Source: the human T2T-CHM13v2.0 reference genome, Homo sapiens
Assembly (NCBI RefSeq): GCF_009914755.1
Contig: NC_060939.1
Reading direction: 5' to 3' (one strand)
Length of the DNA: 64,000 bases
The notes under the pieces are model-generated. The model had not been told where the DNA came from, did no database searches, and saw only the letters and a program-made list of their open reading frames with translations. A program made the translations under genes and the position numbers. The stretch's first letter is position 1, and each line of letters opens with the position of its first letter. Of the stretch, positions 23,249-48,623 are shown one piece after another.

Positions 23249-24080
23249 TGTGAGATAGGAAAAACCAAACTTTTCCCAACTCTCACACTCACCACAAAAT
23301 ACTTCCGTGACCAAATGCAGAGAGGTTTTCCCCACTTACAGAGCAATTCTCCAGCACACAACATCTGGGTCTCCTACAATTTAACTCATTTTTGACACTA
23401 GCTACCTGGAGATAGTGTCAGATCGCACAGACCTACAGACTCAGTCCCATAAGACTGTCACTCCCACCCTTCAGATGCCAACTGCAAGCCCCAGCTTGTG
23501 ACCTGTGCTTCTGACCAACTGCCTGTAAATCAGGGTTCCCATGACCCATGATTAATTTGCTAGAGCAGCTCACAGGACTCAGGGAAACACTTTACCTATG
23601 CTTACTCGTTTATTGTAAAGGATGTTACCAAGCTTGCAGATCGAAGCGATGCAAAAGGCAAAGAATGTGGGAAGGCGTGAAGGGCTTTTTTGCCCTCTCC
23701 TGGTTCACCATCCTCCAGGTGCCTCCACATGTTCAGCAACCAGGAAGCTCTCTGAACCCTGTCCTTTTGGGGCTTTCACGGAGGCTACATTGCATAGGCA
23801 TGACTTTTTACATCACTGGCCATTGGTGATCAACTCAACCATCAGCCCCTTTCCCCGCCCCTGAGGCTGGAGTGGGCTGAAAGTTCCAACCCTCTAATCA
23901 TGGCTTGGTCTTTCTGGAAGACCAGTCCCCATCCTGAAACTATCTAGGGGCTCCCAGTCATCTCATTAGCATACAAAAGGCACTCTTATCTCTCTGGAGA
24001 TTCCAAGGGTTTTAGCAGTTGTTTGCCAGAAACCAGAAACAGGGATCAAATACATCTTTCTTGTTACATCATAATATCAA
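23249..24080 (-). mobile_element. LTR, MER21-like
   Basis: Motifs 'tcagtcccataagactg', 'gcagctcacaggactcagggaaacac' and 'cattagcatacaaaa' typical of MER21. Confidence 0.7.
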
Positions 24081-41504: not shown

Positions 41505-42417
41505 CATAGAAAAAAAACCTAGGAAATAGCATTCTGGAAATCAGCCTCGGCAAAACATTTACAACTAAGTCCTCAAAGGCAACTGCAAAGAAAGCGAAAA
41601 TTGAAAAGTGGGACCTAATTAAGCTAAAGAGCTTCCACACAGTAAAAGAAACTCAAGAGAGTAAACACACAACCTACAGAACAGGAGAAAATAGTCACAA
41701 ACTATGTATCCAACAAAGGTTTAATATACTAAATCTATATGTAACTTAATGCAACAAGCAAAAAACAAATAACCCTATTAAAAAGTGGGCAGAGAACATG
41801 AACCGACACCTCTCAAAAGAACACATACAAGTGGCCACCAAGCATATGAAAAAATGCTCAGCAACACTAATCAGAGAAATGCAAATCAAAAACTGCAATG
41901 AGTTACCATCTCACACCAATCAGAATGGCTATTATTATAAAGTTAAAAAATAACAGATATTGGTAAGGCTATGGAGAAAAGGTAATTCATATATACTGCT
42001 GGTGGGAATGTAAATTAGTTCAGCCACTGTGGAAAGCAGTTTGGAGATTTCTCAAAGAACTGAAAATAGAACTACCATTCAACCCAGCAATCCCATTACT
42101 GGGTATATACTCAAAGGAAAATAAATCATTCCACCCAAAAGACACCGTACTTGTATGTTCACTGCAGCACTATTCACAATAGCAAAAACATGGAAGCAAC
42201 TTAGGTCCCATCAAGAGTGGACTGGAAAAAGAAAATGTGGTACATATATACCATGGAATACTACTTAGCCATAAAAAAAGAATGAAACCATGTCTTTGCT
42301 GCAGCTTGGATGCAATCAGAGGCCACTATCCCACGCAAATTAATGCAGAAACAGAAAACCAAATCCCACATGTTCCTGCTTACCAGTGGGAACTAAACAC
42401 TGAGTACACATGGACAT

Positions 42418-42431
42418 AAAGATGGGAACAA
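42418..42431 (+). repeat. 5' copy of the L1HS target-site duplication AAAGATGGGAACAA (3' copy at 48117-48130)
   Basis: Perfect 14-bp direct repeat; minus-strand nick site CTTT/AT fits the degenerate L1 EN motif TTTT/AA. Confidence 0.93.
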
Positions 42432-42570
42432 CCCTTCCGCCGCCTGTGAAGGGACCCACCGAGCTCCCAGGGCCTTTCTGCTGCTTCCTCTACCCCTGTA
42501 TTTTGCTCGGCTCTGTAACTTGACTCAGCTTCAGAGAGTGGTTAAAAATTCTCAACAAGAAAAAGCTGTG
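42432..42570 (+). other. 139-nt 5'-transduced (non-L1HS) leader
   Basis: Lies between the 5' TSD and L1 nt 1; belongs neither to the interrupted old L1 3' UTR nor to the L1HS consensus. Confidence 0.88.
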
Positions 42571-42951
42571 GAGGGAGGAGCCAAGATGGCCGAATAGGAA
42601 CAGCTCCGGTCTACAGCTCCCAGCGTGAGCGACGCAGAAGACGGTGATTTCTGCATTTCCATCTGAGCTTTGAAGAGAGCAGTGGTTCTCCCAGCACGCA
42701 GCTGGAGATCTGAGAACGGGCAGACTGCCTCCTCAAGTGGGTCCCTGACTCCTGACCCCCGAGCAGCCTAACTGGGAGGCACCCCCCAGCAGGGGCACAC
42801 TGACACCTCACACGGCAGGGTATTCCAACAGACCTGCAGCTGAGGGTCCTGTCTGTTAGAAGGAAAACTAACAACCAGAAAGGACATCTACACCGAAAAC
42901 CCATCTGTACATCACCATCATCAAAGACCAAAAGTAGATAAAACCACAAAG

Positions 42952-43968
42952 ATGGGGAAAAAACAGAACAGAAAAACTGGAAACTCTAAAACGCAGAGCG
43001 CCTCTCCTCCTCCAAAGGAACGCAGTTCCTCACCAGCAACAGAACAAAGCTGGATGGAGAATGATTTTGACGAGCTGAGAGAAGAAGGCTTCAGACGATC
43101 AAATTACTCTGAGCTACGGGAGGACATTCAAACCAAAGGCAAAGAAGTTGAAAACTTTGAAAAAAATTTAGAAGAATGTATAACTAGAATAACCAATACA
43201 GAGAAGTGCTTAAAGGAGCTGATGGAGCTGAAAACCAAGGCTCGAGAACTACGTGAAGAATGCAGAAGCCTCAGGAGCCGATGCGATCAACTGGAAGAAA
43301 GGGTATCAGCAATGGAAGATGAAATGAATGAAATGAAGCGAGAAGGGAAGTTTAGAGAAAAAAGAATAAAAAGAAATGAGCAAAGCCTCCAAGAAATATG
43401 GGACTATGTGAAAAGACCAAATCTACGTCTGATTGGTGTACCTGAAAGTGATGTGGAGAATGGAACCAAGTTGGAAAACACTCTGCAGGATATTATCCAG
43501 GAGAACTTCCCCAATCTAGCAAGGCAGGCCAACGTTCAGATTCAGGAAATACAGAGAACACCACAAAGATACTCCTCGAGAAGAGCAACTCCAAGACACA
43601 TAATTGTCAGATTCACCAAAGTTGAAATGAAGGAAAAAATGTTAAGGGCAGCCAGAGAGAAAGGTCGGGTTACCCTCAAAGGAAAGCCCATCAGACTAAC
43701 AGCGGATCTCTCGGCAGAAACCCTACAAGCCAGAAGAGAGTGGGGGCCAATATTCAACATTCTTAAAGAAAAGAATTTTCAACCCAGAATTTCATATCCA
43801 GCCAAACTAAGCTTCATAAGTGAAGGAGAAATAAAATACTTTATAGACAAGCAAATGTTGAGAGATTTTGTCACCACCAGGCCTGCCCTAAAAGAGCTCC
43901 TGAAGGAAGCGCTAAACATGGAAAGGAACAACCGGTACCAGCCACTGCAAAATCATGCCAAAATGTAA
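42952..43968 (+). CDS. L1 ORF1p (338 aa; coiled coil, RRM, CTD)
   Basis: Canonical MGKKQNRKTG start; REKG, ARR and YPAKLS motifs intact. Confidence 0.98.
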   Translation: MGKKQNRKTGNSKTQSASPPPKERSSSPATEQSWMENDFDELREEGFRRSNYSELREDIQTKGKEVENFEKNLEECITRITNTEKCLKELMELKTKARELREECRSLRSRCDQLEERVSAMEDEMNEMKREGKFREKRIKRNEQSLQEIWDYVKRPNLRLIGVPESDVENGTKLENTLQDIIQENFPNLARQANVQIQEIQRTPQRYSSRRATPRHIIVRFTKVEMKEKMLRAAREKGRVTLKGKPIRLTADLSAETLQARREWGPIFNILKEKNFQPRISYPAKLSFISEGEIKYFIDKQMLRDFVTTRPALKELLKEALNMERNNRYQPLQNHAKM

Positions 43969-44007
43969 AGACCATTGAGACTAGGAAGAAACTGCATCAA
44001 CTAATGA

Positions 44008-47859
<3,852 letters not shown>

Positions 47860-48085
47860 ACAATGAGATCACATGGACACAGGAAGGGGAATATCACACT
47901 CTGGGGACTGTGGTGGGGTCGGGGGAGGGGGGAGGGATAGCATTGGGAGATATACCTAATGCTAGATGACACATTAGTGGGTGCAGCGCACCAGCATGGC
48001 ACATGTATACATATGTAACTAACCTGCACAATGTGCACATGTACCCTAAAACTTAGAGTATAATAAAAAAAAAAAAAAAAATTCT

Positions 48086-48121
<36 letters not shown>

Positions 48122-48623
48122 TGGGAACAAAAGACACTAGAGGGCAGACAGAGGGATGGGGGGAAGGGCTGAAAAACTGCATACTGCGTACTATGCTCAA
48201 TACCTGGGTGACAAGATCAATCATACCACAAACCTCGGCAACACACAATACACCCAAGTAACAAACATGCATATGTACCCCTGAATCTAAAAGTTGAATT
48301 TTTTAATGCAGATTCATAAACAAACACCATTCTAAATCTAAATCCATCTCTAAAAGTGTTGTCTAGGAATATATCTGAGAAGCTAACATTCCTAAACCCC
48401 TTAAATATAGGAAACTATTTTAAGGAGTCTGAAGAATTGATGTTTATTCTCTCAATTAAAAAAAATATCACCACTAACCAAACTGGGATTATACTAATAG
48501 TCCTCCAGCTTGCTTCTTTTTACATATTTTGACATCTTGGCATGTCACATATATGTAAATATGGACAATTTGCACATTCCAAATAATAATTTACAATTTC
48601 CTACAACTAGAGAAAACAATGTA

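What the first reader, a model, noticed from the sequence alone, without database searches (positions are those of the whole stretch)
42432..42570. 139-nt 5' transduction inside the TSD: the L1 RNA began at an upstream promoter
Seen: the 14-bp TSD (42418-42431 / 48117-48130) encloses 139 nt of foreign sequence before L1 nt 1, and the host L1PA16/17-like 3' UTR resumes seamlessly after the 3' TSD. Established: 5' transductions arise when transcription starts upstream of the source L1, and they are rare in human L1. Inference: a 5' transduction and 5' UTR splicing in one insertion suggest that external-promoter transcription favours use of the L1 nt 98 donor, a route to mobilisation independent of the L1 promoter.
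Basis: partly seen in the sequence, partly recalled or inferred. Interest (0 to 1): 0.85.

Follow-up and report, generated by a model that had tools for sequence, protein, structure and literature searches.

The report
L1HS carrying spliced chrX lncRNA exons
A young human L1 retrotransposon in a UACA intron really does carry 139 extra bases at its front end, copied from a spliced chromosome X transcript that read into its parent element, but this insertion is already listed in a 2026 published catalogue.

Summary
A 14-bp target-site duplication (TSD; 42418-42431 and 48117-48130) encloses 139 non-L1 nt, an intact-ORF L1HS whose 5'UTR is spliced 97/622, and a pure poly(A) tail.

The 139 nt are not one genomic piece:
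- **nt 1-103:** identical to chrX:33340515-33340617 (CHM13), ending at a CAG|GTAAAG donor. This stretch lies antisense in the 5'UTR of an old L1.
- **nt 104-127:** identical to chrX:33435857-33435880, 95 kb downstream on the same strand, directly after a ...CCCCTAG acceptor.
- **Last 12 nt:** unexplained.

The chrX match stops 15 bp after a TT|AAAAA endonuclease site. The first bases of that 15-mer (TTCTC) recur inside the insertion's poly(A) tail. I read this as the footprint of a source L1 that CHM13 lacks, so the RNA was cis-spliced from an upstream promoter.

The event is already published. Cell Genomics 2026 Table S5 gives the same TSD and the same chrX mapping. Larson 2018 had listed the element as SpIRE(97/622)-104 with "no transduction".

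The source may already have been spliced, as in the published RAP1GDS1 case.

The parts
42418..42431 (+). 5' target-site duplication AAAGATGGGAACAA, preceded by AT (cleavage site AT/AAAG)
   Evidence: Identical to 48117-48130. It is single-copy in 9 of 11 paralogs of the host L1. The same TSD is printed in Cell Genomics 2026 Table S5.
42432..42534 (+). 103 nt copied from exon 1 of a chrX transcript (CHM13 chrX:33340515-33340617 +; hg38 chrX:33742418-33742520, ENSG00000233928 according to the paper)
   Evidence: 103/103 identity. The next-best genomic matches are 86-95% identical over at most 103 nt. In chrX the match ends at CAG|GTAAAG. It lies antisense in an old L1 5'UTR.
42535..42558 (+). 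24 nt copied from chrX:33435857-33435880 (+), starting at a cryptic 3' splice site. The last 15 nt (42544-42558, AAAAATTCTCAACAA) are read as the 5' TSD copy of the missing source L1.
   Evidence: Its first 18 nt have one other exact site in the genome, and the exact match there runs 24 nt. That site is preceded by TTCAAATTCCCCTAG and followed in chrX by ATGTGTC, which is not a donor. A TT|AAAAA endonuclease motif sits at the start of the 15-mer.
42559..42570 (+). 12 nt GAAAAAGCTGTG of unknown origin, between the inferred source TSD and the L1 start
   Evidence: No other L1 in CHM13 carries it. No 9-mer or longer from it occurs in the L1 or in the chrX loci held. An 8-mer, AAAGCTGT, lies after an AG at chrX:33445680; this is the paper's third block, and I judge it a chance match.
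42571..42667 (+). L1 5'UTR nt 1-97, ending at the known nt-97 splice donor. Together with 42535-42570 it forms a 133-nt internal exon in the inferred RNA.
   Evidence: Sequence and count. The junction is listed as SpIRE(97/622)-104.
42668..48067 (+). Rest of the L1HS, from L1 nt ~622 to the AATAAA signal (48062-48067). ORF1 is 42952-43968 (338 aa) and ORF2 is 44032-47859 (1275 aa); both are open.
   Evidence: ORFs. The junction pattern is shared with 112 sites in CHM13. Tail parsed.
48068..48088 (+). A14 + TTCTC (48082-48086) + A. This is read as the source's short poly(A) tail plus the first bases of the source's 3' TSD copy (AAAAATTCTCAA), a micro 3' transduction cleaved about 20 nt after AATAAA.
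   Evidence: Tail is AATAAA, A14, TTCTC, A33. TTCTC equals the first non-A bases of the chrX 15-mer. No other L1 3' end in CHM13 has this tail.
48089..48116 (+). Poly(A) tail added to the mobilised RNA: the pure A run up to the 3' TSD
48117..48130 (+). 3' target-site duplication AAAGATGGGAACAA, after which the old host L1 3' end resumes

Best explanation
**What it is.** A Ta-type L1HS once sat in + orientation at CHM13 chrX:33435866-33435880 (hg38 about chrX:33837757-33837771). That site is inside the first intron of a lncRNA whose first exon starts antisense in the 5'UTR of an old L1. CHM13 lacks this L1, and per the paper's mapping so does hg38.

**How the RNA was made.**
- RNA polymerase II started at or upstream of chrX:33340515 and read through 95 kb into the L1.
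- Exon 1 (103 nt, donor CAG|GTAAAG) was cis-spliced to a cryptic acceptor 36 nt upstream of the L1.
- The RNA either used the L1 nt-97 donor and nt-622 acceptor, or inherited that deletion from the source DNA.
- It was cleaved about 20 nt after the L1 AATAAA, just inside the source's 3' TSD copy.

**How it inserted.** The L1 proteins copied this RNA into an AT/AAAG site in an old L1 within a UACA intron by target-primed reverse transcription. The result is a 14-bp TSD, the 139-nt 5' transduction, a SpIRE97/622 body with intact ORFs and a 7-nt 3' echo of the source TSD.

**Shown:** the two chrX origins, the splice-site dinucleotides, the TSD and the empty pre-insertion site.

**Inferred:** the missing source L1, the transcription start and the order of the splicing events.
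For: - **Exon 1 piece.** 103/103 nt match chrX:33340515-33340617 and end at CAG|GTAAAG.
- **Second piece.** The next 24/24 nt match chrX:33435857-33435880 on the same strand, 95,239 bp downstream, right after CCCCTAG. The first 18 of them occur nowhere else in 3.1 Gb apart from the window.
- **Source footprint.** The chrX match breaks off 15 bp after TT|AAAAA and is followed by AT, not GT. So it ends at an L1 target site, not at an exon end.
- **3' echo.** The insertion's tail reads AATAAA-A14-TTCTC-A33, and TTCTC equals the first non-A bases of that 15-mer. That is about a 1 in 1,000 coincidence by my arithmetic, and it sits at the usual cleavage distance from AATAAA.
- **Empty pre-insertion site.** Paralogs show it lacked the 139 nt: 9 of 11 abut with a 14-bp overlap and 0 of 11 hold the 139 nt.
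- **Positive control.** In my own loci the published RAP1GDS1 source (L046) and its offspring (L035, L036, L037) share only the last ~16 nt before the L1, downstream of a TTTTCAG acceptor. This is the same architecture.
- **Independent mapping.** Table S5 of PMC13174262 gives the same TSD and the same chrX blocks.
- **An external promoter is enough.** A SpIRE97/622 construct driven by an external (CMV) promoter retrotransposes at about 70% of wild type (Larson 2018, section 14).
Against: - No L1 lies at the chrX site in CHM13. The paper reports that 15 of its 17 gene loci have no intronic L1.
- The 12 nt GAAAAAGCTGTG between the inferred source TSD and the L1 are unexplained. That is long for untemplated bases.
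- No sibling insertion was found in CHM13: none with the exon1-exon2 junction, none with a longer chrX 3' transduction and none with the TTCTC tail.
- The inferred source poly(A) tail is very short, at most about 9 A.
- The transcription start was not checked against CAGE or RNA data, because none is held here.
- The UACA cleavage site AT/AAAG is only a loose variant of TT/AAAA.
Confidence: 0.8

Rival explanations
1. This refines the best explanation and rivals the reader's inference. The chrX source L1 already carried the 97/622 deletion in its DNA, so it was itself a SpIRE with a crippled promoter. It could then move only because the upstream lncRNA promoter and cis-splicing supplied transcription. 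In that case the external promoter did not cause the 5'UTR splice.
For: - This is exactly the published RAP1GDS1/L1PA2 case: the source is a SpIRE with a cryptic acceptor 15 bp upstream, and I recovered that source and its offspring in CHM13.
- SpIRE97/622 keeps about 7% activity on its own 5'UTR but about 70% with an external promoter.
- About 2% of full-length L1PA1 elements are SpIRE97/622 (6 elements).
Against: - No closely related SpIRE exists in CHM13. Among the 46 other exact-junction copies compared, the best is 98.6% identical over 1.46 kb, which is L1PA2-like. The 65 junction matches with 1-2 mismatches were not compared.
Confidence: 0.45
2. The source had an intact 5'UTR, and the 97/622 splice happened in the same read-through RNA. 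The upstream 3' splice site and the L1 nt-97 donor would together define a 133-nt internal exon, which favours use of that donor.
For: - The inferred internal exon (24 + 12 + 97 = 133 nt) has a typical exon size.
- I read by eye the printed L1 starts in Table S5. Of 17 rows, 10 show enough of an L1PA-type 5' end to judge.
  - Four carry the 97/622 junction: MAP3K13, RAP1GDS1 twice, and this one.
  - One carries a similar junction: TPK1.
  - The baseline is 116 of 6,609 full-length L1PA1-6.
Against: - The enrichment is explained equally well if spliced sources depend on external promoters, and two of the rows are one lineage (RAP1GDS1).
- No RNA or minigene data exist.
- Most of the 116 SpIREs are listed without any transduction (passages only).
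Confidence: 0.4
3. There was never an L1 at the chrX site. A spliced lncRNA was joined to an unlinked L1 RNA by trans-splicing, RNA ligation or reverse-transcriptase template switching. This is the model the 2026 paper favours for loci without an intronic L1.
For: - No L1 lies at the chrX locus in CHM13.
- The paper argues for trans-splicing for 15 of its 17 loci.
- The 12 unexplained nt could be junction filler.
Against: - The junction with L1 is not at a splice donor: the 24-nt block is followed by AT in chrX.
- The L1 joins at its nt 1, where there is no acceptor.
- The break falls 15 bp after a TT|AAAAA site, and the TTCTC echo in the 3' tail would both have to be coincidences.
Confidence: 0.1
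4. The 2018 annotation: a 6-bp TSD, 5 untemplated nt and no transduction. On this reading the 139 nt are ordinary UACA-intron flank.
For: Larson 2018 S1 Table and S1 Data list it this way.
Against: - The 14-bp TSD is exact.
- Paralogs of the host L1 run straight across the site without the 139 nt.
- 127 of the 139 nt map at 100% identity to chrX.
- The cross-species alignment in the 2026 paper places these bases inside the insertion.
Confidence: 0.01

Closest known systems
RAP1GDS1/L1PA2 promoter co-option (Cell Genomics 2026, PMC13174262; preprint 10.1101/2025.02.02.635956)
   Same: - Host exons are cis-spliced to a cryptic acceptor a few bases upstream of an intronic L1.
- The offspring carry a spliced 5' transduction plus the 97/622 5'UTR deletion, with normal TSDs and poly(A) tails.
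   Different: - There the source L1 is present in the reference and is itself a SpIRE; here the source is absent from CHM13 and its splice state is unknown.
- There the element is L1PA2 with at least 2 independent offspring; here it is L1HS with one known offspring.
- There the promoter belongs to a protein-coding gene; here it is a lncRNA start lying antisense in an old L1 5'UTR.
SpIRE97/622 class (Larson et al. 2018, PMC5860796)
   Same: The nt 97|622 junction is identical and the element is otherwise full length. It is listed there as SpIRE(97/622)-104, L1Hs, in UACA, in the opposite orientation.
   Different: That table records a TSD of 6, no transduction and 5 untemplated nt. The 14-bp TSD and the chrX origin of the upstream 139 nt supersede this.
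Row 'chr15:70729654-70735160' of Table S5 (17 mRNA/lncRNA-LINE-1 chimeras), Cell Genomics 2026
   Same: This is the same element, with the same TSD, the same chrX exon-1 block and the same 24-nt block.
   Different: - The table gives no note and no splice-donor entry. It maps 8 further nt to chrX:33847570-33847577, and the text leans towards trans-splicing for loci without an intronic L1.
- I add three points: the break lies at an L1 target site, the source TSD echoes in the 3' tail, and exon 1 is antisense to an old L1 5'UTR.
Polymorphic L1 5' transductions (1000 Genomes ONT preprint 10.1101/2024.04.18.590093)
   Same: Upstream sequence is carried at the 5' end of a full-length L1. This is uncommon (49 of 497 L1 transductions) and depends on the locus.
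   Different: The passages I read do not describe spliced 5' transductions. I could not see Table S16 to check whether a source is listed at this chrX position.
SVA_F1 / MAST2 exon capture and L1 antisense-promoter chimeric transcripts (recalled from the literature, not from any call)
   Same: An upstream exon is spliced onto a retrotransposon RNA and then retrotransposed. Transcripts start antisense in an L1 5'UTR and splice into downstream sequence.
   Different: SVA is non-autonomous and uses acceptors inside the element. Antisense-promoter activity is documented, as I recall, for young L1PA 5'UTRs and was not tested for this old L1.

Membership tests
L1 5' transduction (partnered) | Non-L1 sequence lies between the 5' TSD and the L1 5' end and is absent from the pre-insertion site | tested here: met
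   Paralogs: 9 of 11 abut with a 14-bp overlap and 0 of 11 hold the 139 nt.
L1 5' transduction (partnered) | The extra sequence maps uniquely to another locus | tested here: met
   103/103 and 24/24 nt map to chrX, collinear on the same strand. 12 nt are unmapped.
L1 5' transduction (partnered) | A full-length L1 sits immediately downstream at the donor locus | tested here: not met
   In CHM13 the chrX site is empty. Only a footprint remains: the TT|AAAAA site, the 15-bp stretch, and its echo in the offspring tail. Other human genomes could not be searched.
L1 target-primed reverse transcription insertion | TSD, 3' poly(A) tail and an endonuclease-type cleavage site | tested here: met
   14-bp TSD and A33 tail. 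The cleavage site AT/AAAG is a loose variant of TT/AAAA.
SpIRE97/622 | L1 nt 97 joined directly to nt 622, element otherwise full length | tested here: met
   Junction GAG|CTTTGAAGAGAG at 42667|42668. The same 43-mer occurs exactly at 47 sites and at 112 sites with up to 2 mismatches. Listed as SpIRE(97/622)-104. Both ORFs are open.
Cis-spliced host-transcript/L1 chimera with promoter co-option (RAP1GDS1 type) | The upstream exon ends at a canonical donor and the next block starts at an AG acceptor just upstream of the L1, on one strand and in order | tested here: met
   CAG|GTAAAG and CCCCTAG|AGAGTG, with an intron of 95,239 bp.
Cis-spliced host-transcript/L1 chimera with promoter co-option (RAP1GDS1 type) | Source L1 present in the intron; repeated offspring | tested here: not met
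   No source in CHM13 and no sibling.
L1 antisense-promoter-driven transcript | Transcription starts on the antisense strand inside an L1 5'UTR | tested here: inconclusive
   Exon 1 lies about 290-390 nt from the 5' end of a minus-strand old L1 whose ORF1 homology follows at L015 7229-6667. The reverse complement resembles, by eye, the L1PB1 5'UTR printed in Table S5. No repeat library, CAGE or RNA data were available, so promoter activity is not shown.
Trans-spliced or template-switch L1 chimera (U6/L1 type) | The partner RNA joins L1 at a splice site or at an RNA end, with no flanking DNA of a source L1 | tested here: not met
   The block next to L1 is intronic DNA ending at an L1 target site, not at a donor.

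The most novel reading that the evidence does not exclude
The chrX breakpoint is the footprint of a 'ghost' L1HS-Ta source, either still segregating or lost, that was mobilised from a lncRNA promoter lying antisense in an old L1 5'UTR. If so, at least some of the 15 of 17 mRNA/lncRNA-L1 chimeras that the 2026 census attributes to trans-splicing are ordinary cis events from unfixed sources. Such cases could be recognised by an endonuclease site and TSD at the end of the last mapped block, echoed in the offspring's 3' tail. Five other rows of Table S5, from four loci (ZNF681, SATB1-AS1, FHIP1A, TPK1, and RAP1GDS1 twice as the known positive), also end in a short non-exonic block on the same strand.
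Probability: 0.7. Interest if true: 0.45.

Novelty: already known. Interest (0 to 1): 0.3.

Why it matters
- **A promoter-independent route.** L1 RNA can be made from a distant host or repeat promoter, spliced like a gene and still retrotranspose. That route bypasses silencing aimed at the L1 promoter, and it can rescue promoter-less spliced copies.
- **A correction to the 2018 annotation.** This element was recorded then as having no transduction.
- **A worked example for cis versus trans.** It separates cis-splicing from a missing source element from the trans-splicing model, using only the insertion's own ends.
- **Limited as a discovery.** The insertion and its chrX origin are already tabulated in print.

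Tried and rejected
- **Rfam.** A scan of 42300-42700 found no RNA family (0 matches at E up to 1), so this is not a U6-type or other small-RNA chimera.
- **The 36 nt next to L1 as one piece.** Searches with the exact pattern allowing 2 mismatches, BLAST of 65 nt, and a pattern with flexible A-runs found only the window itself. Splitting it into two 18-mers located the first half on chrX. The second half has no other site.
- **A grandparent L1 carrying GAAAAAGCTGTG.** None found with up to 2 mismatches. No 9-mer or longer from it occurs in the L1, in 30 kb of chrX loci, or on the + strand of the rest of the window. One 10-mer on the window's minus strand at 23967 is judged chance.
- **The paper's third 8-nt block.** AAAGCTGT lies after an AG at chrX:33445680. 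I rejected it as an exon because the 24-nt block has no donor and 4 nt would stay unexplained.
- **Siblings of the source.** None found via a longer chrX 3' transduction or via the A-TTCTC-A tail.
- **A related SpIRE lineage.** The best of 46 exact-junction copies is 98.6% identical. The 65 junction matches with 1-2 mismatches were not compared.
- **Host continuity using the young L1.** Only the 5' flank aligned. Loci already held gave no clean answer. This was solved with fresh paralogs.
- **Earlier findings.** The search of earlier findings was not open.
- **Literature on the phrase 5' transduction.** The searches matched poorly. A search for UACA with L1HS found one paper, which only lists a recurrently detected L1HS locus near UACA. 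A search for ENSG00000233928 gave 4 listings, which I did not read.
- **Left out.** I did not align the L1PB1 sequence printed in the paper with chrX, because that sequence is not one I may type. The family names L1PB, L1PA16/17 and Ta are therefore by eye or recalled.

Full report
**1.

The 14-mer AAAGATGGGAACAA occurs at 42418-42431 and again at 48117-48130. Neither copy can be extended: the left contexts are ACATGGACAT and a run of A, and the right contexts are CCCTTCCGCC and AAGACACTAG.

Between the two copies lie, in order:
- 139 nt that are not L1 (42432-42570);
- an L1 starting GAGGGAGGAGCCAAGATGG at 42571;
- a tail reading AATAAA, A14, TTCTC, A33.

The L1 has an open ORF1 of 338 aa and an open ORF2 of 1275 aa. 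Its 3'UTR reads GATGACACATTAG; from memory, ACA is the Ta-subfamily mark. After 97 nt of 5'UTR the sequence jumps to CTTTGAAGAGAG (42667|42668), the junction of the spliced class SpIRE97/622.

**2. The 139 nt were not in the target site**

The insertion sits in the 3' end of an old L1. The 5' flank aligns to the end of ORF2 of the young L1 at 75% identity.

I fetched 11 paralogous copies of that old L1 3' end from the same genome and aligned both window flanks to them:
- In 9 of 11 the flanks abut with exactly 14 bp of overlap, that is, one copy of the TSD.
- One paralog (L027) lacks the 5' flank.
- One (L029) could not be judged.
- None of the 11 contains the 139 nt.

**3. Where the 139 nt come from**

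A search of the window's own assembly (3.1 Gb, 24 contigs) gave these results.

*Bases 1-103.* They are 100% identical to chrX:33340515-33340617 on the + strand. The other 38 scored hits (40 of 738 candidates were scored, the first being the window itself) are 86-95% identical over shorter spans. So this piece lies in a repeat family, but the chrX copy is the donor. In chrX the match ends at CAG|GTAAAGTC, a canonical 5' splice site. Immediately upstream it is preceded by a GC-rich stretch, CCCCCCACCCCCGC.

*The remaining 36 nt.* Searched whole, these found only the window. Searched as halves:
- The first 18-mer hit one other site, chrX:33435857 on the + strand. The exact match there runs 24 nt (AGAGTGGTTAAAAATTCTCAACAA). 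It is preceded by TTCAAATTCCCCTAG, a 3' splice site, and followed in chrX by ATGTGTC.
- The second 18-mer has no other site.

The implied intron is 95,239 bp. The transduced segment is therefore itself spliced: exon 1 (103 nt), then 24 nt beginning at a cryptic acceptor, then 12 nt (GAAAAAGCTGTG) that I could not place.

**4. Footprint of a missing source L1**

The 24-nt block does not end at a donor. It ends 15 bp after TT|AAAAA, the preferred L1 endonuclease site for a + strand insertion. The 15-mer AAAAATTCTCAACAA has the size of a TSD.

The insertion's own tail contains TTCTC, flanked by A, about 20 nt after AATAAA. This is exactly how the 15-mer starts.

The simplest reading has four parts:
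- An L1 once lay at this chrX site with that TSD and a short poly(A) tail.
- A read-through RNA carried the 5' TSD copy in front of the L1.
- The RNA was cleaved just inside the 3' TSD copy.
- It was then polyadenylated.

A five-base match at that position is about a 1 in 1,000 coincidence by my arithmetic.

CHM13 has the empty allele. I found no sibling insertions and no other L1 carrying the 12-nt prefix.

**5. The promoter**

Exon 1 lies on the antisense strand of an old, minus-oriented L1. Homology to the L1HS ORF1 region (window-L1 786-1358) aligns to L015 7229-6667 in reverse. The element's 5' end lies about 290-390 nt beyond exon 1.

By eye, the reverse complement of this region resembles the L1PB1 5'UTR printed in the CREM row of the 2026 table. 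I did not align the two, because that sequence is not one I may type.

I recall that L1 5'UTRs carry an antisense promoter. Whether this old family has one was not tested, and no CAGE or RNA data are available here.

**6. What is already in print**

*Larson et al. 2018 (PMC5860796).* I saw the abstract, sections 7, 8, 14 and 24, and passages of supplement files 1 and 2.
- It lists this element as SpIRE(97/622)-104: L1Hs, chr15:70729597, in UACA, opposite orientation, TSD 6, transduction 'No', 5 untemplated nt. Its reconstructed empty site includes the 139 nt. That reading is superseded.
- It reports 116 SpIRE97/622 among 6,609 full-length L1PA1-6.
- It reports that a spliced construct retrotransposes at about 70% of wild type with a CMV promoter but about 7% without.

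*Cell Genomics 2026 paper (PMC13174262; preprint 10.1101/2025.02.02.635956).* I saw passages, preprint sections 24 and 25, and all three parts of supplement 4.
- Table S5 tabulates this very element: TSD AAAGATGGGAACAA, 138 non-L1 nt, gene ENSG00000233928, transcript ENST00000832416.1, and blocks chrX:33742418-33742520, 33837748-33837771 and 33847570-33847577. There is no note.
- The third block is an 8-mer after an AG at CHM13 chrX:33445680. I think it is a chance placement.
- The paper describes the RAP1GDS1/L1PA2 case. There a SpIRE source in an intron is spliced to host exons through an acceptor 15 bp upstream and produced offspring.
- For the 15 of 17 loci without an intronic L1, the paper leans towards trans-splicing.
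- Files mmc1, mmc6 and mmc7 could not be read and may show this element.

*1000 Genomes ONT preprint.* From passages only: 49 5' transductions among 497 L1 transductions and 4,429 polymorphic L1 insertions.

**7.

I could not decide between two possibilities: the 97/622 splice happened in the mobilised RNA, or it was already in the source.

- The upstream acceptor and the nt-97 donor would frame a 133-nt internal exon.
- I read by eye the printed L1 starts in Table S5. Ten of the 17 rows show enough of an L1PA-type 5' end to judge. Four of those 10 carry the 97/622 junction and one carries a similar junction. The baseline is 1.8%.

Against it:
- The same enrichment follows if spliced sources need external promoters.
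- The one resolved case (RAP1GDS1) is of that kind.

CHM13 holds 112 junction matches, 47 of them exact. Among the 46 other exact copies, the closest to this element is 98.6% identical over 1.46 kb. So there is no sister or parent SpIRE to settle it. The 65 junction matches with 1-2 mismatches were not compared.

**8. Verdict**

This is a real, well-formed insertion: a cis-spliced 5' transduction, with a micro 3' transduction, on a spliced L1HS.

The kind of event is known and this instance is already catalogued, so the novelty is low.
- the splice-site anatomy;
- the source-site footprint, which argues for a missing cis source rather than trans-splicing;
- the antisense-L1 position of exon 1;
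- the correction of the 2018 annotation.

Noticed in passing
L046 (CHM13 chr4:101635474), L035, L036, L037 (chr1:121324175, 144089972, 205597401); chr10:45369063 listed: I recovered the published RAP1GDS1 SpIRE source and its offspring in CHM13. The offspring share only about the last 16 nt (AATGATTCAGTGTAGG) with the source's upstream flank, downstream of a TTTTCAG acceptor. This is the same architecture as the UACA element.
   Followed up: partly
Table S5 of PMC13174262, rows ZNF681, SATB1-AS1, FHIP1A, TPK1: In these rows the mapped blocks end in a short extra block (13-42 nt) that is not an annotated exon but lies on the same strand as the gene's mapped exons. They could be further cryptic-acceptor-to-source-flank segments, that is, cis events from missing source L1s.
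   Followed up: no
Table S5 of PMC13174262, SATB1-AS1 row: By eye, the first transduced exon of that row reads like the antisense strand of a young L1 5'UTR. That would make it another L1 chimera whose upstream exon starts in an L1 antisense promoter region.
   Followed up: no
CHM13 genome-wide: The 43-nt SpIRE97/622 junction has 47 exact matches and 112 matches with up to 2 mismatches in CHM13. This is close to the 116 reported for hg38.
   Followed up: partly
L077, CHM13 chrX:33445680-33445687: AAAGCTGT follows a pyrimidine-rich stretch and an AG. It may be the start of the lncRNA's next annotated exon, and it is the paper's third mapped block. I judge the 8-nt match to the unexplained 12 nt to be chance.
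   Followed up: partly
window 42740-42760: The L1 reads CCCTGACTCCTGACCCCC where the other SpIRE sequences printed in the two supplements read CCCTGACCCCTGACCCCC. This private variant could help recognise the source allele.
   Followed up: no
window 42418-48130 relative to UACA: The intact-ORF L1HS lies antisense to UACA in an intron. A 2026 paper lists an L1HS locus near UACA as detected in at least 80% of lung cancer cell lines, without coordinates in the passages I read.
   Followed up: no
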